Shown here piece by piece: positions 3,993 to 19,604 of a DNA stretch of 32,000 nt. A model generated the notes under the pieces. The model was not told the DNA's origin, searched no databases, and was given only the letters and a program-made list of their open reading frames with translations. The stretch's first letter is position 1; the number at the start of each line of letters is the position of its first letter. Origin of the DNA: Candidatus Electrothrix yaqonensis (GTDB taxonomy: Bacteria; Desulfobacterota; Desulfobulbia; Desulfobulbales; Desulfobulbaceae). The DNA lies in assembly GCA_047651235.1 (NCBI GenBank), contig CP178758.1, forward strand, positions 3,150,001 through 3,182,000, given 5' to 3'. Made by a program: the position numbers and the translations under genes.

Positions 3993-4005
3993 CTGATGTT
4001 ACGCA
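3993..4005. repeat. Left terminal inverted repeat of the IS4-like element
   Basis: ctgATGTTACGCA. The reverse complement of 4791-4803 is cttATGTTACGCA. Confidence 0.65.
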
Positions 4006-4754
4006 GCCTGAAGTCGCTGCAGCTCATCAGAAGCCGAACGAATAGCTTTCAGATAGAGCTTGGTCTTCAGAGCAAAGTGGTTCATCTTTGTTCTGATTTT
4101 TAGATGCTCCATTTTAAACACCGTGATAACGGAGGCAAAAATATGATTACTCTGCGCATTTACACGACGTGCAGGAGATTTGGCTAATGCTGCGTTGGAC
4201 TTCAAAGATTTATGGTACACCTCGACGTTCCATCGTTTTGTATAGATTGCCGTGATCGTGTTCCGATCCGCTGTCAGCTGACTGCAGGCATCGATCATCA
4301 GGCGCAGCAGTTCATTCTTCGTGACTTCGCTCTGACGTTTTTCCCGGCGGGTTTTCAGGTCGCTGAAACGAATCGGCTTGCGGATGAGGTCGAATGCTAT
4401 GGGGATCGAAACATCATCGACATGATAAAGACCGTTCAGCATGTTGATTCCTTTGATATTGCGCCCTCTGCAATGGTCGTAATGCCAACAGATGAGTTCG
4501 TTTTCATCCATCCACGGTTTTTCCTCAACAGTATCGTCGAATATCAGCACACCGTCTTCGGATGCAACTTCACGGACGGTCGATTTGACCTGTTTCCATA
4601 AATCCCTGGAACTCCATTCACCGTCAGCGAGAAAACGAGTGAATTTATCATAATTTATGCAGCTATCAAGCATATCGGACAAGCCTGTGGCTGTGGCGTA
4701 CCCGAAGGTCACAGCCAAATAATCCGTGTAGAGATCAGGATATTTTGTATTCAT
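3999..4754 (-). CDS. IS4-superfamily DDE transposase, probably internally deleted and non-functional
   Basis: The first DDE Asp region is present (VLIFDDTVEEK...WHYDHCRGRNIKGIN). The C-terminal Y-x2-R-x3-E-x6-K signature is present (YTKRWNVEVYHKSLK). The segment that normally carries the second Asp is missing, and the protein is only 251 aa. Confidence 0.75.
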   Translation of the reverse strand: MNTKYPDLYTDYLAVTFGYATATGLSDMLDSCINYDKFTRFLADGEWSSRDLWKQVKSTVREVASEDGVLIFDDTVEEKPWMDENELICWHYDHCRGRNIKGINMLNGLYHVDDVSIPIAFDLIRKPIRFSDLKTRREKRQSEVTKNELLRLMIDACSQLTADRNTITAIYTKRWNVEVYHKSLKSNAALAKSPARRVNAQSNHIFASVITVFKMEHLKIRTKMNHFALKTKLYLKAIRSASDELQRLQAA

Positions 4755-8210: not shown

Positions 8211-8660
8211 TTAACAGGGCTGATTGCTTTCCGGCCAGAATGCATGATCAAGTGCCAGTTCACAAGGCCACGGGCATTGTTCCGGAAAAGTGCTTTTGGG
8301 CAGCCCGGTTTCTTTTGCCGCGCCGGTACGGGCATATTTATAGGCCCGCTCAACAGCCTGGGGGATTTTTTGTCTCAGACTGGGATTATCCTGCAGATGA
8401 TCTGCAATCTGATCACGCTGTTCTTCAATGGTATACCGCCAGCTGTTGCCCTGATATCCCGGCTGAAACTGCCATTTGAGGAGGTGAATGAAAAGGACGG
8501 TTAATCTGCTGACAAGTTCACGCTGCAGACTTCGTCCCATATCCTCTATTTCCTCGGCAAGATGCTCGCGGTCAAGTTCCGCAAGTCTGCCTGCCCGGAG
8601 CAGCCCGGCCTGCTGCGTTGTCCAGCCGAAGAAATCGGCAGCATGTAGCTCTTCAGCCAT
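8211..8660 (-). CDS. DUF29 domain protein
   Basis: FFGWTTQQAGLLRAGRLAELDREHLAEEIEDMGRSLQRELVSRLTVLFIHLLKWQFQP matches the DUF29 pattern I know from cyanobacteria and proteobacteria. GGGAA SD upstream of ATG 8660. GC is visibly higher than in both flanking genes. Confidence 0.8.
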   Translation of the reverse strand: MAEELHAADFFGWTTQQAGLLRAGRLAELDREHLAEEIEDMGRSLQRELVSRLTVLFIHLLKWQFQPGYQGNSWRYTIEEQRDQIADHLQDNPSLRQKIPQAVERAYKYARTGAAKETGLPKSTFPEQCPWPCELALDHAFWPESNQPC

Positions 8661-8699
8661 AATTTTCCCTTTTGGTGAGTTATCTATGCGGGATATCGC

Positions 8700-9002
8700 T
8701 TAAACATATTCAGTTGTCCGCTTAATAGACCTTGCGATATTTTTGCTTCTTATTCCTTTCAATCCGGCAACAGTGATTACATCTGTCTTTTTTCCGAACA
8801 ATACCTCAAGATATTCAACAAACTCTATAAAATGCAAACCGATGGGCTTCTTGAAATCCGCGATAATGTCAATATCACTCTCTTCCCGCTGAGTTCCTGT
8901 CGCATATGAGCCGAATAACCCTATTTTTTTAAGGCCGAATTCAGCAGCAAGAAATTGATAATTGTCTCGCAGCTTTTTGGTTATCTGTTCTTTTGTCAGC
9001 AT
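8700..9002 (-). CDS. Minimal nucleotidyltransferase (MNT/MntA-like)
   Basis: LFGSYATGTQREESDIDIIADF is the NTase motif. 100 aa, AT-rich like the two genes upstream. It starts 27 nt after the HEPN-like gene's stop. Confidence 0.8.
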   Translation of the reverse strand: MLTKEQITKKLRDNYQFLAAEFGLKKIGLFGSYATGTQREESDIDIIADFKKPIGLHFIEFVEYLEVLFGKKTDVITVAGLKGIRSKNIARSIKRTTEYV

Positions 9003-9029
9003 AATGAATTGCTGGAGTCGTAGCTTCCG

Positions 9030-9836
9030 TTAGATATTTTTTATATTCTTCGTAATAACTGATGCCAATAATTCAATAAGCCCTAGTTGAAGGAAAACAA
9101 CTTTATCCTTTCTGGTTTCCAGAACGTCAACACTTTCTGTGTTGTCAAAATCATTACCATGGGCCACCTCATGGCGCTTCCTATTGATTTCGTCAAGAAA
9201 TTCTTGCCATAAAGTTCTGCGAGCTACTTTTATTGTACTCTCTTTTAGATTTAGTCTTGATTCCTGGCAACTATAAGGAAAAACGACAAGGCTTTTTTTT
9301 AAGATACTTCTTTCCTTGTCTATAGACTCCTTCAATTCTCGATTTGTTCCTGAAAACACATTGTCAAGCTCTGAGTCATGCAAACAGGAAAAAACATTTT
9401 CTACCCCAAAACCACTGAATATCAACTTAATAGTATCTGGTTTTGGATTCTTGTTTGTAGTCGTTAGAAATGGTTCAAAAGAGATATTGGCTTCAAGTTC
9501 TGAAAATTTTTCCGAAAGATTTTTGACTTTCTTCCAATAACTGTGACTGCGTTTGTCAGGAGGGTTCCCGATATATTTTATGCAATATGTGTTTTGAATT
9601 TTCTGGGGTAATTCGGAGAATGAACAATTTTTATTTAAATCTTGACTTACTGATCTGACAAGTTCTTTTGTAAAACCTTCTAAGTGAGCGACCAACAATA
9701 CCGTTATAGAACGACATAAGGCATTGTACAAATCGTAATTTAAATCTTCTTGCTTTTTAGCTTCACCAAGAAGAATATCTATCTCCTGCCATTTTTCGTC
9801 AAGTTGATCCAGAAATTCCGACAGAAAAGTTGCCAT
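9030..9836 (-). CDS. HEPN-like nuclease (MAE_28990/MAE_18760-type family, recollection)
   Basis: 268 aa and helical. N-terminal LLVAHLEGFTKELV and C-terminal Rx4H motif (NRKRHEVAHGND). Its ATG shares one nucleotide with the DUF262 stop (TAATG at 9834-9838). Confidence 0.7.
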   Translation of the reverse strand: MATFLSEFLDQLDEKWQEIDILLGEAKKQEDLNYDLYNALCRSITVLLVAHLEGFTKELVRSVSQDLNKNCSFSELPQKIQNTYCIKYIGNPPDKRSHSYWKKVKNLSEKFSELEANISFEPFLTTTNKNPKPDTIKLIFSGFGVENVFSCLHDSELDNVFSGTNRELKESIDKERSILKKSLVVFPYSCQESRLNLKESTIKVARRTLWQEFLDEINRKRHEVAHGNDFDNTESVDVLETRKDKVVFLQLGLIELLASVITKNIKNI

Positions 9837-10921
9837 TAGGAGATAACCTCCATCCCCTTTTGAATTCTTGTAGTGAGTTTTGAAACATCTGTGACGCTTC
9901 CTTCAACGGACGAAAAAAAAGTTTTATCATGGAAAAGTTCTCTGATTTTTTTAATATCTAAAGTTTTCTTTTTTTCGGAAAGAGAAACCGGAACGACTAT
10001 TGAGTCAAAAACAGCGGCATTAAATTTTGACATTCTACGAAGTTCGCCATCTACGCTCCTGTATTTTGCGAACGGTAATTTTTCACCTGATAATTTAATA
10101 TGCTCAAAAGTAGATAGAAAGAAATCTTCCATTTTTTCCAATTCTTCTTTGTCAAGTTTATTGAATTGTTCCATTCTTTCTGTTAGGAATTTTTTAAATT
10201 CCCCTTTATACTGTTTATATCCTTCTTTATAAGCTAACGAAAAAAACCTTAAAACAAGCTCCTCGTCTTCCATTTTCTGGACTCTTTTGCTGTCTTCTTT
10301 GTCTAAAGAGCATAATTCTCTAAAGTTATTATTTTTAGATATTTTTTTAATGAGTTTTTTAAACGGCCCTCGACAGGTTGCATTTCTTAACTCTTGAGGT
10401 TCAAGTGTTACAGAACCTGAATTTAACCTTTCAAAAATATCGTATTTAACTTGGCTGTCAGCCGTTGAATCAATACGTAGACATCGAATAGTTCTTTCTT
10501 CCAGTCTTCTAATTAAAAAGGGCGGAAGATCCCTATAGTATGAATTATTTAACTCTGTAAGAACCTCTAAACCATTTAGGGAATATTTATTTTTTAAAAA
10601 ACTATAAATAGCTGTTAATCTTTGCTGACCATCAATAACAGAATATCTTGAAACATCCTCTTCAACTTCTTCGTCAACATCTATATCTTGCGATATATAA
10701 ATAAATGGGACAGGAATATTAAGGATCAAACTTTCAATTAACCTAGAAGAAACTTCGTCACTCCATCGATGCCTCCGTTGATATTCAGGATTTAATTGTA
10801 TAGTTTTTCTGTCTATTTTTTTTACTAATGTTTCAAGATCATACTCAATTGTTTGAGTTTTTACAGTTCTCTCTTTGGCTTTTCTTTGAATGCTTTCTAA
10901 TTTTTTTTTCAGACCGGACAT
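9836..10921 (-). CDS. DUF262 (ParB-like/GmrSD N-terminal type) domain protein
   Basis: Has the QRRHRW...VIDGQQRLTAIYSF motif. No DUF1524/His-Me nuclease half is present. Start placed at ATG 10921 (MSGLKKK...), with an AGGGGA SD 8 nt upstream. The track start at 10984 is GTG. Confidence 0.85.
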   Translation of the reverse strand: MSGLKKKLESIQRKAKERTVKTQTIEYDLETLVKKIDRKTIQLNPEYQRRHRWSDEVSSRLIESLILNIPVPFIYISQDIDVDEEVEEDVSRYSVIDGQQRLTAIYSFLKNKYSLNGLEVLTELNNSYYRDLPPFLIRRLEERTIRCLRIDSTADSQVKYDIFERLNSGSVTLEPQELRNATCRGPFKKLIKKISKNNNFRELCSLDKEDSKRVQKMEDEELVLRFFSLAYKEGYKQYKGEFKKFLTERMEQFNKLDKEELEKMEDFFLSTFEHIKLSGEKLPFAKYRSVDGELRRMSKFNAAVFDSIVVPVSLSEKKKTLDIKKIRELFHDKTFFSSVEGSVTDVSKLTTRIQKGMEVIS

Positions 10922-11004
10922 TGACTTTTCCCCTAACAAACAAATACAATTTAAATATTCCAAAGGTGCAACTGTCAGATACACCTTTGGAACAAGTCCT
11001 CCGT

Positions 11005-13658: not shown

Positions 13659-13745
13659 CGGAAAAAAGCAAGGAAGAGAGGATGTTCAGAGAGCACGGAG
13701 GAACTCTCGCGGAAAAATGATCAGTCTGTTTTACACGCCCCCGCC

Positions 13746-13832
13746 CCCGAAAAGCTGCCCCAGTTTGTGCAGCAGGGCGGTAAGCAGTCTGGAGTCCGCC
13801 GGTTTAGCCTGGTCAGGAAGCGCCACTTTAGG
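13746..13832 (-). repeat. Copy C (most diverged) of the ~89-bp repeat derived from the 3' end of gene 15740-16144
   Basis: Aligns to 15761-15849 with many substitutions and two compensating 1-nt indels. The minus-strand translation is ...KPADSRLLTALLHKLGQLFGGGGV*, with its stop at 13731-13733. Confidence 0.8.
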
Positions 13833-13851
13833 GAACACTGCTGCGGAACAA

Positions 13852-14845
13852 CTATTTTTGAGCGTTATGCCGAAGGTCGGTTATCAGACTAACCACCAGC
13901 CGGATGAGCAGGTCTTTCTGCTCCGGTGCGCTGGAGGCGATAAGCAGGGTCAGGGCGACCAGGACCTGGTCGTCAGGAAGCGACCGGTGCTGATTACTCT
14001 GCAGAAACAGGAGAAAAAGAAACGAACCGATTCGTTTGTTGCCGTCCGTGAATGGATGATCCTTGATGACAAAATAGAGCAGATGGGCTGCTTTTCCCTC
14101 TATGCCGGGATAGAACATCCTGTCCGGCAAAGCTCTGGCCTACAGCCCCGATAATCCCAGCCAAGCCGTGCCCCCGCTCCTGACCGAAAATCTCGGTGGC
14201 CTCGCCTCGTTCCAGTAAATCCAGACGCAGGGAGGCAATAGCTTCCCGTACTTCCGCAGTCTCAGGTACTCTGCCGGTTTTCTTTCCCGCCTTGGGAAGG
14301 GGCAAAGAATCCTCATCATACTGCCAGAGCAACTGCCAGGTGCGGGCATAGTCTCTGACCAGCATCAGCACAGTCCTGCCATCATCATTGACCAGATCGT
14401 GGTTTTCCAAGGTGTTACTCAATAAGTCCAGCACCTGCCTGATTTCGGCAGCACTTTTTTCCGCCAGCCGTTTCTGATGCAATGTGTATCCTTGAACCAG
14501 ATGCTGTTTCAGCACGGTAGTCGCCCAGATACGGAATTGGGTGCCACGCTTGGAGTTAACCCGATAGCCCACGGAAATGATGGCGTCAAGGTTATAGTAA
14601 TCGACCTGATAGGTCTTGCCGTCTGCGGCAGTTGTTGCATTTTTTGCAACAACTACTGAACGCTCCAGCTCCTCAGACTGAAAGATATTACGAAGATGTC
14701 TTGAGATTACCGACTTATCACGCTCAAAAAGCTCAGCAATCTGGTTTAAGGTCAACCAGACTGTCTCATCCTTCAGCCGTACATCAATCCCGGTTTGACC
14801 GTCGTTGGTTTGATATAAAATGACTTCACTTTGCGTAGGTAACAT
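13852..14845 (-). pseudogene. RhuM-family / Fic-DOC fusion gene with a single frameshift
   Basis: ORF 13994-14845 carries the RhuM-type N-terminus (VILYQTNDGQTGIDVRLKDETVWLTLNQIAELF...GTQFRIWAT). The Fic core (GIEGKAAHLLYFVIKDHPFTDGNKRIGS) continues in another frame (13852-14130). The frame changes at about 14113-14122, consistent with a 1-nt deletion. GGAG SD upstream of ATG 14845. Confidence 0.8.
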
Positions 14846-14909
14846 TTGTTTGCTCCTTGTTTGTCGTACAGCAACGGGCTACAGAACCCCTACCTCATCC
14901 TTCCCCCGT

Positions 14910-14998
14910 CCCGAACAGCTGCTCCAGCTTGTTGAGCAGGGCCGTGAGCAGTTTGGAGTCTGCTGGTTTATGTTCGATCAGGAAACGCCATTTGCCGG
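14910..14998 (-). repeat. Copy B of the ~89-bp repeat (orphan 3'-end fragment)
   Basis: 81 of 89 nt identical to 15761-15849 by hand alignment. The minus strand translates as (T)NTSGKWRFLIEHKPADSKLLTALLNKLEQLFGTGEG*. There is no start codon, and an in-frame TGA lies a few codons upstream. Confidence 0.9.
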
Positions 14999-15007
14999 AG
15001 GTATTTG

Positions 15008-15451
15008 TTAAAGCTGTTCAACCTCCTTTGAAGCAATCAGCTCTTCAATTTCCTGAATCAGTGCTGGCAGATTAGGCTGCTCAAAGCTCATATTCGGTGC
15101 CGGAATGCGGTTTCGTTTGATGTTCGGAGGAATATGTTTGTGGTGAGGATGTGTACTTGCCAGAGATGTGCTGTTTGGATGAGGCTGGGAATCGTACCAA
15201 TACAACTTCTCATCATCCTTCCATACTTCGTAGCCGTACCAGTCGGTTACAATGGGAATTTGCCCGAACAGAACACGTTCGCGAAGTACCAGTCTGAATC
15301 CATGCTCGAAGTGCAGTTCCCCGAAAACCCTCCCCAGTGTTGAACCGCGCCGAACAAAGACCAGACTTGAACGCTGCACAGAGGGAAACTGTTCCGTAAT
15401 CGTGTACAGGAACAGTTCGTAATCTTCCGGTGTGCGAAACGGGGTACTCAT
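15008..15451 (-). CDS. DUF6516/TumE-like putative toxin-antitoxin component
   Basis: 147 aa with YWYDSQPHPNSTSLASTHPHHKH, which resembles the DUF6516 pattern (recollection of the ...PHHKH motif). The ATG overlaps the upstream stop (ATGA, 15448-15451). Confidence 0.55.
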   Translation of the reverse strand: MSTPFRTPEDYELFLYTITEQFPSVQRSSLVFVRRGSTLGRVFGELHFEHGFRLVLRERVLFGQIPIVTDWYGYEVWKDDEKLYWYDSQPHPNSTSLASTHPHHKHIPPNIKRNRIPAPNMSFEQPNLPALIQEIEELIASKEVEQL

Positions 15452-15717
15452 GCGGCGACCTGAATAAGACCTTTCAGGCTTGGTGCTTCTCTGTTCTGAC
15501 GCTGAACTTCATTGCGATATTCAGCTAATCGGGTAAGCCAAGTTTTGTACACACTGCCCCACTCACCGAAATCAAGCACCCAGGCATCGTTCTCCGGCTC
15601 TTCACCGCTGACATAAGCGGCATAGAACACATCGGAACGTACCCCGTATTTTCGTTCAAATGATAACAGGTCTTCTTCCAGCGCATGAATATCCATGAGG
15701 ATGTCGCGTAGTTTCAT
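15448..15717 (-). CDS. Small acidic partner protein (putative antitoxin or regulator), unknown family
   Basis: 89 aa. A strong GGAG SD lies 7 nt upstream of ATG 15717. It is translationally coupled to the DUF6516-like gene. Confidence 0.5.
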   Translation of the reverse strand: MKLRDILMDIHALEEDLLSFERKYGVRSDVFYAAYVSGEEPENDAWVLDFGEWGSVYKTWLTRLAEYRNEVQRQNREAPSLKGLIQVAA

Positions 15718-15739
15718 GATATATCTCCTTTTATTTTTT

Positions 15740-16144
15740 TTAATCCATCGGTGTTTTCACCCCGAACAGCTGCTCCAGTTTGTGCAGCAGGGCGGTGACC
15801 AGTTTTGAGTCTGCCGGTTTATGTTCGATCCGGAAACGCCATTTGCCGGTGGAGGTGCGTTCGATTTTGATGTGACTGCGGAGGAGAAAGGTTACGGCTA
15901 CCAGGGTGGCTACCTCGGTGCCGGGGAAGAAGGTTTTGCAGGTTTCATCCTGATTGCGCAGGGCCTCTATGGTTGCGGCCTGCTGCGGGTCTTGGTTGAG
16001 GACGGCCAAGGTGTCCTCAAGGATTTCCGGGTCCAGGTCGGCAGGGGGCGGTGCTGCGGGGAATTCGGCCTGGAAGGCGGCGAAATCCGGGTCAGCGGCG
16101 GCTAGGGTGTGGAGGATGCAGTGGTCTTGTTCAGTTGTGCTCAT
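15740..16144 (-). CDS. 134-aa protein of unknown function, translationally coupled to the CHAT-STAND gene
   Basis: ATG at 16144 lies inside the last codons of the upstream gene (14-nt overlap, 16131-16144). The N-terminal half is acidic and Pro/Ala-rich. A hydrophobic stretch (VATLVAVTFLL) follows, then a conserved C-terminal tail. No family recognised. Confidence 0.65.
   Translation of the reverse strand: MSTTEQDHCILHTLAAADPDFAAFQAEFPAAPPPADLDPEILEDTLAVLNQDPQQAATIEALRNQDETCKTFFPGTEVATLVAVTFLLRSHIKIERTSTGKWRFRIEHKPADSKLVTALLHKLEQLFGVKTPMD
15761..15849 (-). repeat. Copy A of the ~89-bp repeat (the in-gene, intact copy)
   Basis: Encodes GKWRFRIEHKPADSKLVTALLHKLEQLFG within CDS 15740-16144. 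Direct repeats of it lie at 14910-14998 and 13746-13832. Confidence 0.9.
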
Positions 16145-19100
16145 TGAGTTTCTGCTCCAATTGGTCAAGGGGGATGTGTTGCTCCAGTCCGGCCTGCTGC
16201 CAGTTTTGCCGGAGTATGGTTTGGGTTTTCGGGTCGGCGGCTTGAAGTGCCCGGATAAAATTTCGAGCTACGATGACAAAGCTGTGCGGGTCATCAAAGC
16301 GGAGGAAAACCGGCATAGCCTTCAGATACCATTCTCCGGCACTTGCGTAATCCTTCTGTAAGAGGGCAAGCTGTCCAAGCTGGTGATAGGTGCTCGCCGC
16401 GCCATGCTCGTTACTCTGTTTTTCTTTGAGAGTGAGAGATTTTTTATACCAATTTTCTGCTGCTACAAACTCTTGTTGCTCCTGGGCGATTATTCCCAAA
16501 TGGTGATATGTCATTGCCGATCCGGGCTCATCACCTTGTTTTTCTTTGATCTCCAGAGATTTTACATACCATTGTTTCGCTGTTGCAAAGTCGCGCTGTT
16601 CTTCGGCAATTCTTCCTAACTGGTGAAGGGTCACTGACGCACCACGCTCGGTGCCCTGCTCTTCCTCTATCGTTAGAGATTTCTTGTACCATTGTTCTGC
16701 AGCTACAAAGTTCCGTTGCTTTTGAGCGATGCTTCCTAACTGGTGATAGGTGGCTGCCGCCTCGTGCTCGTTGCCCTGTCTGTTAAAAATCGTGAGCGAT
16801 TTCTTATACCACTGTTCCGCTGCGGTAAAATCACGCCGCTCCTCGGCGATAATCCCTATATGGTGATAGGTGACTGCCGCATCGTGCTCGTTGCCATGTT
16901 TTTCAAAGATAGCCAGCGATGTCTTATACCACTTTTTCGCCGCAGCAAAATCCCGCTGCTCCTCAGCAATTCTCCCTAAATCGTGATAACATCTTGCTTC
17001 GCCTATATAATTTTTCTCTTTTTGGTGATGTTCAACAAGGTTGGCAAACAACTGTGCTGCGCCTGCATAATCACGGCTATTCAGAGCATAGGCCGCTAAT
17101 CTTGTAGTTAGGGCGGTGATATCCTGAGCCATGCCAAGATGCTGCGCCAGTTCCAAGGCATGATGAAAATTGCCCTGATGCAGAGCAAAAGGAATGCGTT
17201 GTTCGTGTAATTCTTTCAACGCAAGCTGGTCGGCAAAGCTACCCATGAAATCAACAAAGGCCCGTTTCAACCCTTCCGTTGCCGGATGCTGCCGTTCCAG
17301 ATGACTTTGCAGGGCAGGGTGCATTTGAAAGATATTGCTACCCAGAGCATTGACTAAACCTGCGGTTTCCAGCAAAGCAAAACAGTTTTGAATCGGCTCG
17401 CTGTTTTCCTCCGTGTTCAGCATGTACTGAGCAAGATAATTCTGCTCCACAAACCGCCGATGCAGACCGATCAACTGAAGCACCGGGCCGTATTCCTCCG
17501 GCAGGCCCTGATCAAGCACAGCCAAGGCCGCTAAAATCCGGCTTCCGGATTCGTCTCCTTCAAGCAGGGCAAACTCCTTGCGCAGATCAGCCAGTAGCTC
17601 TTTTGCCCCTTTGTCTTTTAATTGTAGCAGCACCGTGCGCAAAGCCAGCGGATGCCCGTCCAACTCCTCAATCAGAGCACGGAAATCCTCGTCATCCCGC
17701 CTGACGGTCAACCCTAAATCACGCAGCACCTGATTGCAGAACTGCCACAGCTCTTCCCCGTGCAGGCCGGACAGAGGCAGGCGGAAGCATTCCCCGGTAC
17801 TTAGCCATTTTTCCGCAGAGCGGCTGGTGATGAGCACCTTGGTTTTGCCGCCACGCAATCCGGCCAGCAGTTCTTTGAGCAGGCCCCGGTCATCCTCGGA
17901 CAGCATGGGCCGAACTTCCGTGCCTGCAAGCCCGGAGGCGGACTCGAAGTTATCCCAGATCAGCAGAAAGGGGTGCGCCTTCAAGACCTTGATCAACCCG
18001 GCCAGCTTCTGTTCCAGCGGCGCAGCAAGGGCATCGGTACCAAAAATACCGTCAATTAGCTGATTGATCACAAACTCTGCACTGCGGATTTCATCAAAGC
18101 TGAACCAAAAGACCTGCTGCGCAATCTGCTGATCCAGCCCGCCGGTATCCCGCAGCCAATGGAGAAAACCTTTTGCCAAAGTAGTCTTGCCCACACCGGC
18201 CATGCCGTGAATCAGAAAGGCTGCCTGGGGCTGGCGCAAGCGGGCACGTTCCAACTGCTGCACGGCCTGCTGCCGCCCGATAAAGCCGTCATCACCCAAT
18301 TGCCGGGCCTGTTCCGGGAGCGGGTCCGGTGCAGCGTCTTGCTCCAGAGTAAATTTGTCCGCCCCTGGAGTCGCTGCAACCGGTCGTGCCAGCACGGTCT
18401 CATCCCCCTGCATCTGTTGATAGAGCACCGGCACCAGCCAGTCCTGCAAGGGATGTTCACCGAGCAAACAGGGCCGCTGATCATGAACCAGCATGGCCTG
18501 GCGACCGGCACGGGTGGCTTCGGCCACATTGGCGGTTTCCAGTAGGCGGGAGTAAAAGGCAGGCATAAAGTGCTGCGCCCCGCTGACATAGAGGTTATAA
18601 CCCATTGCCATCACGCTACGGATACCGGCCTTGAGCAGGGCCGCTGCTACTGAGGCAAAGGCGTCCTCGGCCTGATCGTCAATCCGGGCCGACTGGCAGG
18701 CGTTGAGCACCATGATCGGAATGCGGTATTCAGCCAGCAGCTCCGAGAGCAGGCGGGCCTCCACCGGGGCAGCCTCAGCCTCGTCATTTTCAAAGAGCAG
18801 CCTGCCCTGCGCCCCGCTTTTGAAAGCGTCCGAGGAAATGCTGTCCTCAGTTGCGCCGTAGCCGCCGTGGCCGTCAAAATGAACAATATGGTAAAATTCC
18901 GGTCTGTCGTGGAGCTGCTGCCGAAGTTGGTCAAAGGTGGGCGGGCGCAGCACGTCAATATGCACAGGCAATTGCTGCTCGCGGGTCAGTTCCACCAGCG
19001 GACGGGACAGGGCATGAAAGCCCACATCGCTGTCCCCGCCGGGTCGGGCAATGACCAGCAGGATGTTGATGCGATCCTTGGGCAAGTTCTCCGGCAACGG

Positions 19101-19604
19101 CAGCGGATCATTCAGGTCTTTGTTGATCTGCCGCTCAATCCGGCAATGATGGGCCAAGGTACCGATCTCCGGGTCATGTATAGCCTCCCAAGGCCAAGCC
19201 AGCACACCGGGATCATCAGAAGAAATCTTCAGATGCAGATTTTCTAGGCCCTTTTGCCGGGCCTCCTGCAACCAGAGATATGCCTGCTTCTGAAACAGGG
19301 CTTCAAAGCAGCTTTTGCCCCATTGTTGCAAGGTATCCTGGACCCGCTCGGCCAGCTCAGGATATGCGCCTGTGGGTAATTCAAGAAACTGCTCCAGATA
19401 CCAGCGCAGATCCTGCTGCAAATTGCTGCTCGGACGACCGGGAACACGGGTCTGATCCGGCCCGGTGAGTGTCACCGGAGCAGAGGTCTTCAGGTCGCTG
19501 CCGCCGCCGCGTATGACGATAAACTGCGGATTGTTCTGCTCGTTGTTCTGATAACCGATATGGTTGATCTGCAACTGGTGCGATTGATGCAGTCGGGAAG
19601 GCAT
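16131..19604 (-). CDS. CHAT protease - NB-ARC (STAND) ATPase - TPR repeat protein
   Basis: 1157 aa. CHAT dyad candidates are HFDGHG (His ~246) and VLNACQS (Cys 303). Walker A is GMAGVGKTT (Lys 473), Walker B is LLIWDNFE, and the NB-ARC GxP motif is GHPLAL. Five near-perfect plus flanking degenerate 40-aa TPR units follow (WYKKSL.I.E.QGNEH.AA.TYHQLG.IA.EQRDF). GGAG SD lies 7 nt upstream of ATG 19604. Confidence 0.9.
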   Translation of the reverse strand: MPSRLHQSHQLQINHIGYQNNEQNNPQFIVIRGGGSDLKTSAPVTLTGPDQTRVPGRPSSNLQQDLRWYLEQFLELPTGAYPELAERVQDTLQQWGKSCFEALFQKQAYLWLQEARQKGLENLHLKISSDDPGVLAWPWEAIHDPEIGTLAHHCRIERQINKDLNDPLPLPENLPKDRINILLVIARPGGDSDVGFHALSRPLVELTREQQLPVHIDVLRPPTFDQLRQQLHDRPEFYHIVHFDGHGGYGATEDSISSDAFKSGAQGRLLFENDEAEAAPVEARLLSELLAEYRIPIMVLNACQSARIDDQAEDAFASVAAALLKAGIRSVMAMGYNLYVSGAQHFMPAFYSRLLETANVAEATRAGRQAMLVHDQRPCLLGEHPLQDWLVPVLYQQMQGDETVLARPVAATPGADKFTLEQDAAPDPLPEQARQLGDDGFIGRQQAVQQLERARLRQPQAAFLIHGMAGVGKTTLAKGFLHWLRDTGGLDQQIAQQVFWFSFDEIRSAEFVINQLIDGIFGTDALAAPLEQKLAGLIKVLKAHPFLLIWDNFESASGLAGTEVRPMLSEDDRGLLKELLAGLRGGKTKVLITSRSAEKWLSTGECFRLPLSGLHGEELWQFCNQVLRDLGLTVRRDDEDFRALIEELDGHPLALRTVLLQLKDKGAKELLADLRKEFALLEGDESGSRILAALAVLDQGLPEEYGPVLQLIGLHRRFVEQNYLAQYMLNTEENSEPIQNCFALLETAGLVNALGSNIFQMHPALQSHLERQHPATEGLKRAFVDFMGSFADQLALKELHEQRIPFALHQGNFHHALELAQHLGMAQDITALTTRLAAYALNSRDYAGAAQLFANLVEHHQKEKNYIGEARCYHDLGRIAEEQRDFAAAKKWYKTSLAIFEKHGNEHDAAVTYHHIGIIAEERRDFTAAEQWYKKSLTIFNRQGNEHEAAATYHQLGSIAQKQRNFVAAEQWYKKSLTIEEEQGTERGASVTLHQLGRIAEEQRDFATAKQWYVKSLEIKEKQGDEPGSAMTYHHLGIIAQEQQEFVAAENWYKKSLTLKEKQSNEHGAASTYHQLGQLALLQKDYASAGEWYLKAMPVFLRFDDPHSFVIVARNFIRALQAADPKTQTILRQNWQQAGLEQHIPLDQLEQKLNEHN
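16334..17000 (-). repeat. Tandem 120-bp coding repeats (TPR units) inside the CHAT-STAND gene
   Basis: On the + strand, TGGTGA(T/A)(A/G)GGT... recurs at 16381, 16501, 16621, 16741 and 16861. Degenerate units lie on both sides. The period is exactly 120 nt and in frame. Confidence 0.85.

What the first reader, a model, noticed from the sequence alone, without database searches (positions are those of the whole stretch)
13746..15849. The 3' end of the CHAT-adjacent small gene is present three times and brackets two toxin-type cassettes
Three direct repeats of ~89 bp are present:
- Copy A, 15761-15849, inside the intact 134-aa gene.
- Copy B, 14910-14998, 81/89 identical to A by hand alignment.
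- Copy C, 13746-13832, clearly more diverged and carrying compensating indels.

On the minus strand they encode:
- A: GKWRFRIEHKPADSKLVTALLHKLEQLFG-VKTPMD*
- B: GKWRFLIEHKPADSKLLTALLNKLEQLFG-TGEG*
- C: KPADSRLLTALLHKLGQLFG-GGGV*

Each has the same conserved tail and a different short extreme C-terminus.

Between A and B lies a two-gene DUF6516/TumE-like module (15008-15717). Between B and C lies a RhuM-Fic/DOC gene (13852-14845). Each cassette begins with its own strong SD a few tens of nt after a repeat's stop codon. Each cassette ends 9-20 nt before the next repeat. No recombinase, IS end or promoter is visible inside the array.

The architecture fits serial insertion or recombination at the 3' end of the small gene. 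In that model the incoming DNA supplies a replacement tail and pushes the older tail plus its cargo downstream. This is analogous to orphan cdiA-CT/rhs-CT arrays, or to islands that regenerate the 3' end of their target gene. I am not aware of this being described for a CHAT-STAND locus.

The gradient of decay supports an order of acquisition. C is the most diverged repeat, and the Fic gene next to it is frameshifted.
Basis: partly seen in the sequence, partly recalled or inferred. Interest (0 to 1): 0.85.

Follow-up and report, generated by a model that had tools for sequence, protein, structure and literature searches.

The report
Gene-tail relics bracketing toxin/defence cassettes
In a cable bacterium, the last ~90 bases of a small gene next to a CHAT-NACHT-TPR immune-type gene occur three times, with a toxin-antitoxin pair and a broken RhuM-Fic gene between the copies; related genomes show this gene end repeatedly collects such cassettes by recombination, without any visible recombinase.

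Summary
Three direct copies of the small gene's 3' end lie at 15761-15852 (A), 14895-15002 (B) and 13731-13837 (C). They bracket TumA/TumE and a frameshifted RhuM-Fic gene. The organism is Candidatus Electrothrix sp. YB6.

- The unit is locus-specific, not a dispersed repeat.
- Cassette-free, one-cassette and alternative-cassette alleles exist.
- Two independent assemblies carry the same tail-TumAE-tail unit.

Orphan tails recur in other cable-bacterium loci, next to VapBC, an HTH_3 gene and an MmeI-type restriction-modification module. Five of six independent cargo|tail junctions fall at codons ~90-105.

- B and C are native-type tails of different alleles.
- A's odd end (VKTPMD*) comes from a secondary 30-nt deletion that fuses the ORF to the remnant of an unrelated gene.
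- There is no polymorphic-toxin logic.
- Some orphan tails are leftovers of replacement of the CHAT operon.
- There is no integrase, no attC-like fold, no tRNA, and no copy in viral, plasmid or phage collections.

Best reading (about 0.5): homology-anchored serial displacement, as in Rhs C-terminal displacement, with relics kept similar by gene conversion and cassettes stabilised by toxin addiction. This is a new variant of a known kind, of moderate interest.

The parts
16131..19604 (-). CHAT protease - NACHT/NB-ARC NTPase - TPR (STAND) gene, 1157 aa. It is the platform gene upstream of the array.
   Evidence: Pfam hits: CHAT 4.2e-22, NACHT 2.4e-9, NB-ARC 1.1e-7, TPR_12 4.8e-49. Orthologues precede the small gene in L001, L002, L007, L013, L017 and L027.
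15740..16144 (-). Small partner gene, 134 aa, of an uncharacterised family. Its start overlaps the CHAT-STAND stop by 14 nt.
   Evidence: No Pfam, NCBIfam or PADLOC hit. About 50 homologues, mostly Electrothrix/Electronema, always after a CHAT-STAND gene where the context is visible. AlphaFold2 mean pLDDT 75; no significant PDB fold match.
15761..15852 (-). Tail copy A, the in-gene copy (codons ~98-128: T..GKWRFRIEHKPADSKLVTALLHKLEQLFG).
   Evidence: Homology to all other alleles stops at 15760-15762. It carries two private non-synonymous changes.
15740..15755 (-). Remnant 3' end (..TPMD*) of an unrelated upstream gene ('geneX'), now fused in frame to the small gene after a 30-nt deletion that removed the native stop codon.
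   Evidence: Alignment of window, L027 and L025. L027 keeps ..FGAEGG* plus about 20 nt of UTR before this remnant. L025 has geneX intact, at least 103 aa, ending ..SVTPMD*.
15008..15717 (-). TumA-like antitoxin (15448-15717) and TumE toxin (15008-15451), with a 4-nt overlap.
   Evidence: Pfam TumE 55.3 bits against a cut-off of 23.4. NCBIfam TumA/TumE hits are weak and below cut-off. The same module, 84-90% identical in DNA, occurs in L025, L026, L027 and L028.
14895..15002 (-). Tail copy B, an orphan. It is a native-type tail running from codon ~98 through its own stop codon (TGEG*). It has no start codon in frame.
   Evidence: Homology to native alleles runs through the stop codon; for example 93.5% over 107 nt to L009 t1 and 88.8% to L005. 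No start codon in frame, and the frame is offset by 2 from the TumE stop.
14846..14894 (-). Native 3' UTR of the small gene plus the ribosome-binding site of RhuM-Fic.
   Evidence: The block tail + UTR + RhuM is contiguous and homologous in L014 (82% over 739 nt). The post-stop GGTAGGGG motif is shared with L017 and L027 t2.
13852..14845 (-). RhuM-Fic/DOC gene, a pseudogene with one extra base near 14114.
   Evidence: Pfam RhuM 1.9e-23 and Fic 1.1e-9 on two ORFs. tblastn of the intact 322-aa L017 orthologue switches frame at about 14114-14172. The intact form matches PADLOC PDC-S23 at 5e-126.
13731..13837 (-). Tail copy C, the oldest orphan. It is E. laxa-type (..KLGQLFGGGGV*), carries indels, and its left edge is uncertain (codon ~90-101).
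   Evidence: It is 71-79% identical to every other tail in the 87-nt core, while the other tails are mostly 83-94% identical to one another (the diverged orphan L014_t falls to 77-86%).

Best explanation
The two downstream copies are non-coding relics of earlier 3' ends of the small CHAT-STAND partner gene. They were left behind by successive recombination events, each of which placed new DNA between the gene body and its former tail.

Proposed order of events (inferred):
1. The resident gene had a C-type tail.
2. A block from another strain, consisting of the small-gene 3' end (B type), its 3' UTR and RhuM-Fic, was joined in. This shunted tail C downstream.
3. A unit carrying geneX-TumA-TumE was then joined at codon 98. 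This shunted tail B and RhuM-Fic downstream.
4. A 30-nt deletion later fused copy A to the geneX remnant.
5. RhuM-Fic acquired a frameshift.

Proposed mechanism (inferred, not shown): homology-anchored recombination without a dedicated recombinase. Two routes are possible:
- Homology-facilitated illegitimate recombination, with the conserved small gene as anchor.
- Excision of a 'tail + cargo' circle by tail x tail recombination, followed by Campbell-type re-integration at a resident tail. This is the model proposed for Rhs C-terminal displacement.

Once two tails exist, they keep recombining. Gene conversion keeps the orphans coding-like, and crossovers in the tail reshuffle what lies to its left and right. 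Deletion of the intervening cassette is counter-selected when it is an active toxin-antitoxin pair.

The net effect is a small accreting island of toxin-antitoxin and defence genes at the end of a CHAT-NACHT-TPR operon.
For: Shown by tool results:

The tail is specific to this locus.
- A back-translated pattern hits once per genome in four Desulfobulbaceae genomes (E. gigas, E. laxa, Electronema halotolerans and MAG S24.Bin023).
- Two further one-per-genome hits, in a Flavobacteriaceae and a Steroidobacteraceae MAG, align over only 11 residues and look like chance matches.
- It hits four metagenome contigs.
- It hits nothing in IMG/VR, and the plasmid and phage searches returned only short RhuM matches.

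Alleles differ in cassette content.
- Cassette-free: L002, L005, L007, L029.
- One tail plus cytochrome b plus intact RhuM-Fic: L017.
- Small gene - TumAE - orphan tail, in a different downstream context, in two independent assemblies: L026 and L027.
- MmeI module | t1 | 103-aa gene + HTH_3 | t2 | VapBC | t3: L009.
- HTH_3 insertion flanked by a ~130-nt duplicate of the gene end plus UTR: E. laxa.

Linkage of each tail with the cargo to its right is conserved across genomes.
- B + UTR + RhuM matches L014 and L017.
- L009 t1..HTH_3 matches E. laxa tail..HTH_3.

The three window tails are of different allele types and are mosaic. A shares five of the eight A/B-informative sites with C, but its last 16 nt with B.

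The same 212-aa|tail junction is followed by different right-hand DNA in L014 than in L009 and L023. This implies crossovers inside the tail.

The orphans are not decaying neutrally.
- Differences between window B and L027 t2 are 2/1/8 by codon position.
- In the neighbouring genes, third-position identity is 75-83%.
- Yet the orphans lack start codons and sit in inconsistent frames.
- This points to gene conversion.

No recombinase was seen in any array locus whose genes were examined.

The circle and anchor models are published for analogous arrays (PMC2935791; PMC5361080).
Against: - Five of six independent cargo|tail junctions lie within about 45 nt (codons ~90-105). A purely illegitimate joint is not expected to be that focused, so this favours some site preference.
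- No circular intermediate, and no donor with 'small gene - TumAE without a second tail', was observed.
- The upstream end of the L025 and L009 contigs could not be fetched. It is therefore unknown whether a larger element, possibly with an integrase, once sat there.
- Only the 32-kb window of this genome was available, so a trans-acting recombinase or further tail copies elsewhere in the genome cannot be excluded.
- The codon-position statistics rest on 87 nt.
Confidence: 0.5

Rival explanations
1. Site-specific integration. The conserved 3' end of the small gene is the attB of one or more integrases, encoded elsewhere or since lost. Each unit is a decayed integrative element that carried its own copy of the gene end, as e14 and phage 21 do at icd. 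Only the addictive toxin-antitoxin or defence genes survived later deletions.
For: - Junctions cluster at codons ~90-105 in five independent events.
- The duplicated segment is about 130 nt in the two best-defined cases, L027 and E. laxa.
- L025 shows that the TumAE unit was once larger: geneX is intact there and only 16 nt of it remain in the window.
- What remains between tails is mostly toxin-antitoxin modules.
Against: - No integrase was found in the window or among the genes examined at the other array loci L001, L009, L025 and L027.
- No tRNA is present.
- The junctions are not at one nucleotide, and the E. laxa duplicate covers a different segment.
- No shared motif is visible at the cargo-side ends.
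- The tail is absent from viral, plasmid and phage collections.
- In L023 the tail is left by a replacement that also deleted the CHAT gene, not by an insertion.
Confidence: 0.22
2. The orphan tails are functional elements kept by selection. They could act as a peptide, an RNA, or a regulatory or processing signal needed by the downstream cassette.
For: - Orphans keep an open tail frame and native stop codons in at least five loci.
- Their differences are biased to third codon positions.
- The L009 and L023 tails are 90% identical, while the adjacent MmeI module is 78% identical.
Against: - window B, L023 t and L027 t2 have no start codon in the tail frame, and the frame relative to the upstream stop is inconsistent.
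- There is no significant single-strand fold; z-scores range from -1.9 to +0.8.
- There is no Rfam hit and no promoter or terminator signal above shuffles.
- Synonymous variation in the tail of functional alleles is not reduced.
- Copy C, L009 t2 and t3, and the L025 remnant are clearly decaying or truncated.
- The genes downstream of the tails are unrelated to each other.
Confidence: 0.07
3. Artefact or trivial duplication. The repeats could come from assembly error, or from a single local tandem duplication with no link to cassette gain.
For: The genome is a metagenome-assembled or long-contig assembly. The repeats are short.
Against: - The copies differ by 10-30% and by allele type, so they are not collapsed or duplicated reads.
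- The same tail-TumAE-tail structure, with the same junction, is present in two other independent assemblies and in a third as a remnant.
- The DNA between copies is unrelated in each interval, which a tandem duplication would not give.
Confidence: 0.02

Closest known systems
Rhs C-terminal displacement (Jackson et al. 2009, PMC2935791) and orphan cdiA-CT/rhs-CT arrays
   Same: - An intact gene is followed by a string of fragments.
- Each fragment starts with a piece of the gene's conserved region, of variable length.
- Each is followed by different downstream genes.
- The newest unit lies nearest the gene.
- The fragments come from the same clade of alleles.
- No recombinase is present.
- The proposed mechanism is homologous recombination through a circular 'core fragment + cargo' intermediate.
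   Different: - Here the repeated piece is the very end of a 134-aa non-toxin protein.
- The variable part after it is 4-6 residues, not a toxin domain.
- The cargo is independent genes with their own ribosome-binding sites (toxin-antitoxin, restriction-modification, candidate defence genes), not toxin tip plus immunity pairs.
- There is no PxxxxDPxGL or VENN-type demarcation motif.
- Switching copies would not change the protein's function.
T6SS effector-immunity arrays in Vibrio cholerae (Kirchberger et al. 2017, PMC5361080)
   Same: - Sequential insertion downstream of a conserved gene shifts older genes further 3'.
- Alleles are mosaic and spread by homologous recombination.
- Homology-facilitated illegitimate recombination is proposed, with the conserved upstream gene as anchor.
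- The authors make an explicit comparison with integrons, but no integrase is present.
   Different: - There the selected relic is the immunity gene.
- Here the relic is a non-coding gene end, and the selected items are toxin-antitoxin and defence modules.
- The platform is a CHAT-NACHT-TPR operon, not a secretion system.
Integrative elements that regenerate the 3' end of their target gene (e14 and phage 21 at icd; tRNA/tmRNA islands). This comparison rests on my own knowledge, not on a paper read here.
   Same: - Direct repeats consist of the target gene's 3' end and flank the inserted DNA.
- The upstream copy keeps the gene intact.
- Tandem accretion is possible.
   Different: - No integrase is present.
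- The units are only 0.85-1.5 kb.
- Junction positions vary.
- The tail was not found on any phage or plasmid record.
Integron cassette arrays / CALINs
   Same: - Small, mostly co-oriented cassettes that often carry toxin-antitoxin genes.
- Each cassette is bounded by a repeat of about 60-140 nt.
- ORFs are packed tightly against the repeat.
- The arrays grow from one end.
   Different: - The repeat is a protein-coding gene end that is conserved as protein down to 40% identity in Gammaproteobacteria.
- It does not fold as an attC hairpin.
- No IntI gene is present.
- One cassette is inverted and one is 3.7 kb.

Membership tests
Integron cassette array / CALIN | The repeats are attC sites: imperfect palindromes that fold as long single-strand hairpins with R''/L''-L'/R' boxes. 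| tested here: not met
   Single-stranded DNA folds of eight tail sequences (six window folds covering A, B and C on both strands, plus L009 t1 and L014) give z-scores from -1.9 to +0.8. There is no common hairpin.
Integron cassette array / CALIN | An IntI-type tyrosine recombinase with attI at the head of the array. This is required for a complete integron but not for a CALIN. | tested here: not met
   No recombinase domain was found in any window ORF scanned. The head of the array is a CHAT-NACHT-TPR gene plus the small gene.
Polymorphic-toxin C-terminal displacement (Rhs/CdiA/MafB type) | A conserved core is followed by a variable C-terminal toxin domain and a cognate immunity gene. Orphans encode alternative toxin tips. 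| tested here: not met
   Only 4-6 residues follow the repeated segment (VKTPMD, TGEG, GGGV). The cargo genes are separate ORFs with their own ribosome-binding sites.
Polymorphic-toxin C-terminal displacement (Rhs/CdiA/MafB type) | A string of dissociated fragments lies downstream of the intact gene. Each begins with a core fragment of variable length from the same allele clade. | tested here: met
   This holds for window copies B and C. It also holds for L009 t1-t3, L027 t2 and the E. laxa mini-tail, whose left edges lie at codons ~90-122.
Site-specific integrative island that restores the target gene's 3' end | An integrase gene lies inside or next to the repeat-bounded unit. | tested here: not met
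   None in the window. None among the genes called or ORFs read in L001, L009, L025 and L027. The rest of the genome could not be examined.
Site-specific integrative island that restores the target gene's 3' end | Crossover is at one fixed position of the att core. | tested here: inconclusive
   Junctions cluster at codons ~90-105 but are not identical, and one lies at about codon 122. Post-insertion erosion cannot be excluded.
TumE/TumA toxin-antitoxin (Durairaj et al. 2023, PMC10584680) | The toxin matches the TumE (DUF6516) family and is preceded by a small antitoxin gene. | tested here: met
   Pfam PF20126 scores 55.3 bits against a cut-off of 23.4. An 89-aa upstream gene overlaps TumE by 4 nt and gives a weak TumA hit, E=0.0028, below the NCBIfam cut-off. 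Toxicity was not tested.
RhuM-Fic/DOC (PADLOC candidate PDC-S23) | One polypeptide carries an N-terminal RhuM domain and a C-terminal Fic/DOC domain. | tested here: not met
   Both domains are present, but on two ORFs split by a +1 frameshift near 14114. The intact L017 orthologue matches PDC-S23 at 5e-126. The window copy is a pseudogene unless this is a sequencing error.

The most novel reading that the evidence does not exclude
The ~90-130-nt end of the small gene could be a dedicated capture site. On this reading, CHAT-NACHT-TPR operons of cable bacteria would act as an integron-like platform. Toxin-antitoxin and defence cassettes would be inserted at a preferred point (around ..ACC GGC AAA TGG.., codons ~95-105). 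The insertion would depend on an unlinked or still unrecognised recombination activity, or on a sequence-programmed break. The cassettes would then be expressed by read-through from the immune operon, with orphan tails serving as reusable docking sites.
Probability: 0.12. Interest if true: 0.85.

Novelty: new variant of a known kind. Interest (0 to 1): 0.5.

Why it matters
- It shows the 'displacement array' architecture outside polymorphic-toxin loci. That architecture was previously described for Rhs, CDI, Maf and T6SS effector loci. Here it occurs at the end of an NLR-like (CHAT-NACHT-TPR) operon, and the cargo is toxin-antitoxin and defence genes.
- It gives a concrete example, visible across genomes, of how defence and toxin-antitoxin genes can accumulate next to an immune gene without any mobile-element machinery.
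- It shows how short gene-end relics can act as portable homology that keeps reshuffling such islets.
- The junction clustering is a defined, testable anomaly. If it reflects a real site preference, it would point to an unrecognised insertion mechanism.
- Practically, the orphan tails and the fused VKTPMD end are annotation traps. The small gene's true C-terminus is ..LFG(x)4.

Tried and rejected
- **attC-like hairpin.** Folded the tails on both strands. No significant or shared structure, so rejected.
- **Known RNA or tRNA target.** No Rfam hit and no tRNA.
- **Internal promoter or terminator in the tails.** The scan found nothing above shuffles.
- **Dispersed repeat.** Back-translated pattern scans of genome and metagenome collections gave only small-gene loci, plus a few chance-level hits (L008, L012, L016).
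- **Tail carried by phages or plasmids as attP.** Two pattern scans of IMG/VR found nothing. blastn against the plasmid and phage collections returned only short RhuM matches.
- **The tail travels with its left-hand cargo.** The MmeI + 212-aa module and TumAE both occur elsewhere without any tail (L019-L022, L028). Rejected.
- **Translated orphans through read-through or frameshift.** Frames are inconsistent and start codons are missing.
- **Overlapping nucleic-acid element that constrains synonymous sites in the tail.** Not seen.
- **dif/Xer-like or restriction-site explanations for the junction hot spot.** Examined by eye only. No convincing match, and not pursued.
- **Fold of the small protein.** AlphaFold2 mean pLDDT 75. 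Foldseek against PDB gave no hit with E<0.001, only weak resemblances to winged-helix proteins. The afdb50 library was unavailable.
- **Literature.** One attempt failed because the paper (PMC122325) is not held.


Full report
**1. Observation**

The minus strand of 13.7-16.2 kb reads as follows: CHAT-NACHT-TPR gene (16131-19604), small 134-aa gene (15740-16144), TumA-like gene (15448-15717), TumE (15008-15451), orphan tail B (14895-15002), RhuM-Fic (13852-14845) and orphan tail C (13731-13837).

- The repeat finder reports the three copies. A/B is 90% identical over 92 nt and B/C is 66% ungapped.
- With gaps, A/C is 82% over 85 nt.
- A 33-nt core finds exactly these three sites, against none in 100 shuffles.
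- tblastn with the whole protein finds no further copy in the window.
- RhuM-Fic is split by one extra base near 14114, relative to an intact 322-aa orthologue.
- The window contains no recombinase, no tRNA and no Rfam family.
- Promoter-like and terminator-like sites in the array are not in excess over shuffles.

**2. Organism and gene family**

The small protein is 100% identical to a hypothetical protein of Candidatus Electrothrix sp. YB6, a cable bacterium. It has about 50 homologues. Most are from Electrothrix and Electronema (75-86% identity), and some are from Gammaproteobacteria (about 40%).

Where the context is visible, the small gene follows a CHAT-STAND gene, with overlapping stop and start codons.

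The family alignment shows that the normal C-terminus is ..GKWRFLIEHKPADSKLLTALLxKLEQLFG followed by four residues such as TEGG or GGGA. Orphans B (TGEG*) and C (KLGQLFGGGGV*, the E. laxa type) therefore look like ordinary native ends. The in-gene copy A (VKTPMD*) is the odd one.

An AlphaFold2 model (mean pLDDT 75) places the repeated segment as the second strand of a beta hairpin plus the C-terminal helix. No solved structure matches significantly.

**3. Is it a generic repeat?**

No. A back-translated pattern for KPADS[KR]L[LV]TALL hits once per genome in four Desulfobulbaceae genomes: E. gigas, E. laxa, Electronema halotolerans and one unclassified MAG. Two further hits there, in a Flavobacteriaceae and a Steroidobacteraceae MAG, align over only 11 residues and look like chance.

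A relaxed version hits four metagenome contigs, one of them a chance-level match. It hits nothing in IMG/VR. The plasmid and phage searches returned only short RhuM matches.

**4. Related loci**

| Type | Loci | Arrangement |
|---|---|---|
| Cassette-free | Electronema (L002-L004), L005/L006, E. gigas (L007), L029 | Small gene followed directly by an unrelated convergent gene |
| One tail with cargo | L017 | CHAT, small gene, cytochrome b, intact RhuM-Fic, then SLT_2 |
| Same unit as the window | L027 and L026 (two independent assemblies) | CHAT, small gene with native end ..FGAEGG* and about 20 nt of UTR, the 16-nt ..TPMD* remnant, TumA, TumE, 'CAAAC', orphan tail from codon 98 with native UTR, then 5-FTHF cyclo-ligase |
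| Remnant | L025 | Unrelated geneX (at least 103 aa, ending ..SVTPMD*), TumA, TumE, 'CAAAC', 25-nt tail remnant, then the L017-type context (cytochrome b, RhuM remnant, SLT_2) |
| Alternative array | L009 | MmeI-type methylase + 212-aa gene, t1, 103-aa gene + HTH_3, t2, VapB-VapC, t3 |
| Replacement allele | L023/L024 and L014 | The MmeI + 212-aa module abuts an orphan tail |
| Partial duplicate | E. laxa (L001) | An HTH_3 insertion is flanked by a ~130-nt duplicate of the last ~26 nt of the gene plus its UTR |

In L023 the MmeI module is preceded by only the first ~72 codons of the CHAT gene. It has therefore replaced everything from CHAT codon ~72 to small-gene codon ~94.

The MmeI module and TumAE also occur elsewhere without any tail. 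The tail is therefore not part of those modules.

**5. What the comparisons show about the window**

- *Copy A's unusual end is secondary.* Compared with L027, the window lacks 30 nt that include the native stop codon. The ORF therefore runs into the last codons of geneX.
- *The B block is native.* Tail B, its 3' UTR and RhuM are one native block. They are 82% identical over 739 nt to L014, and the post-stop GGTAGGGG motif is shared with L017 and L027 t2.
- *The three tails are different alleles and are mosaic.* At the eight sites where A and B differ, C agrees with A at five. The other three are private changes of A. Yet the last 16 nt of A equal B, and those of C equal E. laxa.
- *The TumE|tail junction is shared.* It is the same in the window, L027 and L025, although the DNA to the right of the orphan differs. 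The 212-aa|tail junction is likewise followed by different DNA in L014 than in L009 and L023. The tail is therefore a point where left and right neighbours are exchanged.

**6. The orphans are not decaying neutrally**

Between the window and L027, third-position identity is 75-83% in the small gene, TumA and TumE. The block has therefore been diverging for a long time.

The orthologous orphans (window B and L027 t2) differ at 2, 1 and 8 sites by codon position. The L009 and L023 orphans are 90% identical, while the adjacent MmeI module is 78% identical.

Several other explanations for this conservation fail:
- The orphans have no start codon and sit in different frames relative to the upstream stop.
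- They have no significant fold.
- Functional alleles show no extra synonymous constraint in the tail.

The simplest reading is continuing gene conversion or recombination with functional tails. By contrast, copy C, L009 t2 and t3, and the L025 remnant are visibly eroding.

**7. Junction positions**

The cargo|tail junctions are:
- TumE at codon 98.
- The 212-aa gene at codon 94-95.
- VapC at codon 99.
- The HTH_3 region at codon ~100-105.
- Fic at codon ~90-101.
- The E. laxa event at codon ~122.

Five of six lie within about 45 nt.

Orphans shorter than about 20 codons would have escaped my searches. Longer ones would have been easier to find, and none was seen. This is the main observation that homology-anchored illegitimate joining does not predict, and it keeps a site-specific mechanism alive.

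**8. Mechanism**

I favour homology-anchored serial displacement (confidence about 0.5). Incoming DNA pairs through the conserved small gene. It is then resolved so that the resident tail and its downstream genes are kept and pushed 3'.

Resolution could occur by either of two routes:
- An illegitimate joint. This is homology-facilitated illegitimate recombination, as proposed for T6SS arrays (PMC5361080).
- Integration of a circle made by tail x tail recombination, as proposed for Rhs (PMC2935791).

What is shown:
- The relic nature of B and C.
- The polymorphism among alleles.
- The mosaicism of the tails.
- The absence of recombinase genes in the loci seen.

What is inferred:
- The order of events.
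- The circle or anchor step.
- Gene conversion.
- Stabilisation of the TumAE interval by toxin addiction.

Rival explanations are site-specific integration by an unlinked or lost integrase (0.22), functional orphans (0.07) and artefact (0.02).

**9. Comparison with known systems**

The architecture matches Rhs/CDI C-terminal displacement and T6SS effector-immunity arrays in topology and in the proposed mechanism. It fails their defining content, because there is no toxin tip and no immunity pair.

It resembles islands that regenerate a target gene's 3' end, but it lacks an integrase. It resembles an integron array, but the repeat is a protein-coding gene end without attC structure.

The TumE assignment rests on Pfam. 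TumE/TumA were defined by Durairaj et al. 2023. Intact RhuM-Fic matches the PADLOC candidate PDC-S23.

**10. Verdict**

- It is a new variant of a known kind: displacement-type accretion at a non-toxin partner gene of a CHAT-NACHT-TPR operon, collecting toxin-antitoxin and defence genes.
- Interest is 0.5. The phenomenon is real, recurrent and tidy, with one unexplained feature (the junction hot spot). It does not require a new kind of machinery on present evidence.

Noticed in passing
window 16131-16144: The stop codon of the CHAT-NACHT-TPR gene and the start codon of the small gene overlap by 14 nt. This suggests translational coupling of the two proteins. The same tight pairing is seen in the related loci.
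   Followed up: partly
window 16374-16986: Four direct repeats with 120-nt spacing and 68-72% identity lie inside the CHAT-STAND gene. They correspond to tandem 40-residue TPR_12-type units (family D1).
   Followed up: partly
window 8211-10984: A low-GC islet (32-35% against about 52% elsewhere) carries DUF29, a nucleotidyltransferase (MNT-like), a RiboL-PSP HEPN protein and a GmrSD_N/DUF262 protein. It is a second small defence or toxin-antitoxin islet a few kb downstream of the array.
   Followed up: partly
window 3999-4754: A DDE transposase fragment (DDE_5/DDE_Tnp_1, 251 aa) is the only mobile-element-type gene found among the window ORFs scanned. It lies about 9 kb from the array.
   Followed up: no
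window 15761-15852 (copy A): The in-gene copy carries two private non-synonymous changes at otherwise conserved residues (L104R, L117V), in addition to the lost native stop. The 'functional' copy looks less constrained than orphan B.
   Followed up: partly
L023 1776-5881 (also L024, L014, L009): An MmeI-type N6-methylase/Eco57I gene plus a 212-aa gene of unknown family replaces the CHAT-STAND gene from codon ~72 through small-gene codon ~94. One immune system has been swapped for another at the same locus.
   Followed up: yes
L009 3074-3105, 3866-3935, 5285-5391: A Desulfobulbaceae MAG has its own three-tail array with different cargo: a 103-aa gene plus HTH_3, then VapBC. The third tail starts 5 nt after the VapC stop.
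   Followed up: yes
L001 10373-10500 and 11452-11579: E. laxa carries a ~130-nt direct duplicate of the last ~26 nt of the small gene plus its 3' UTR, flanking an 840-nt HTH_3 insertion. The UTR also contains palindromic REP-like sequences that recur before SLT_2 in L017 and L025.
   Followed up: partly
window 16131-17800 vs L027 2-2035: The TPR (sensor) part of the CHAT-STAND protein is only 62% identical between two strains. Their small genes are 85% identical and their TumA proteins 98%. This suggests fast or diversifying evolution of the sensor region.
   Followed up: no
L018 2304-2373: In another metagenome contig the small gene loses homology right after ..LLTALL, and the contig ends 70 nt later. 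This may be a further insertion or IS junction inside the tail.
   Followed up: no
L017 3762-3770: The small gene of L017 has a 2-nt insertion (ATCGCGAACAT against ATCGAACAT) that breaks the tail frame. It is either a pseudogene or an assembly error.
   Followed up: no
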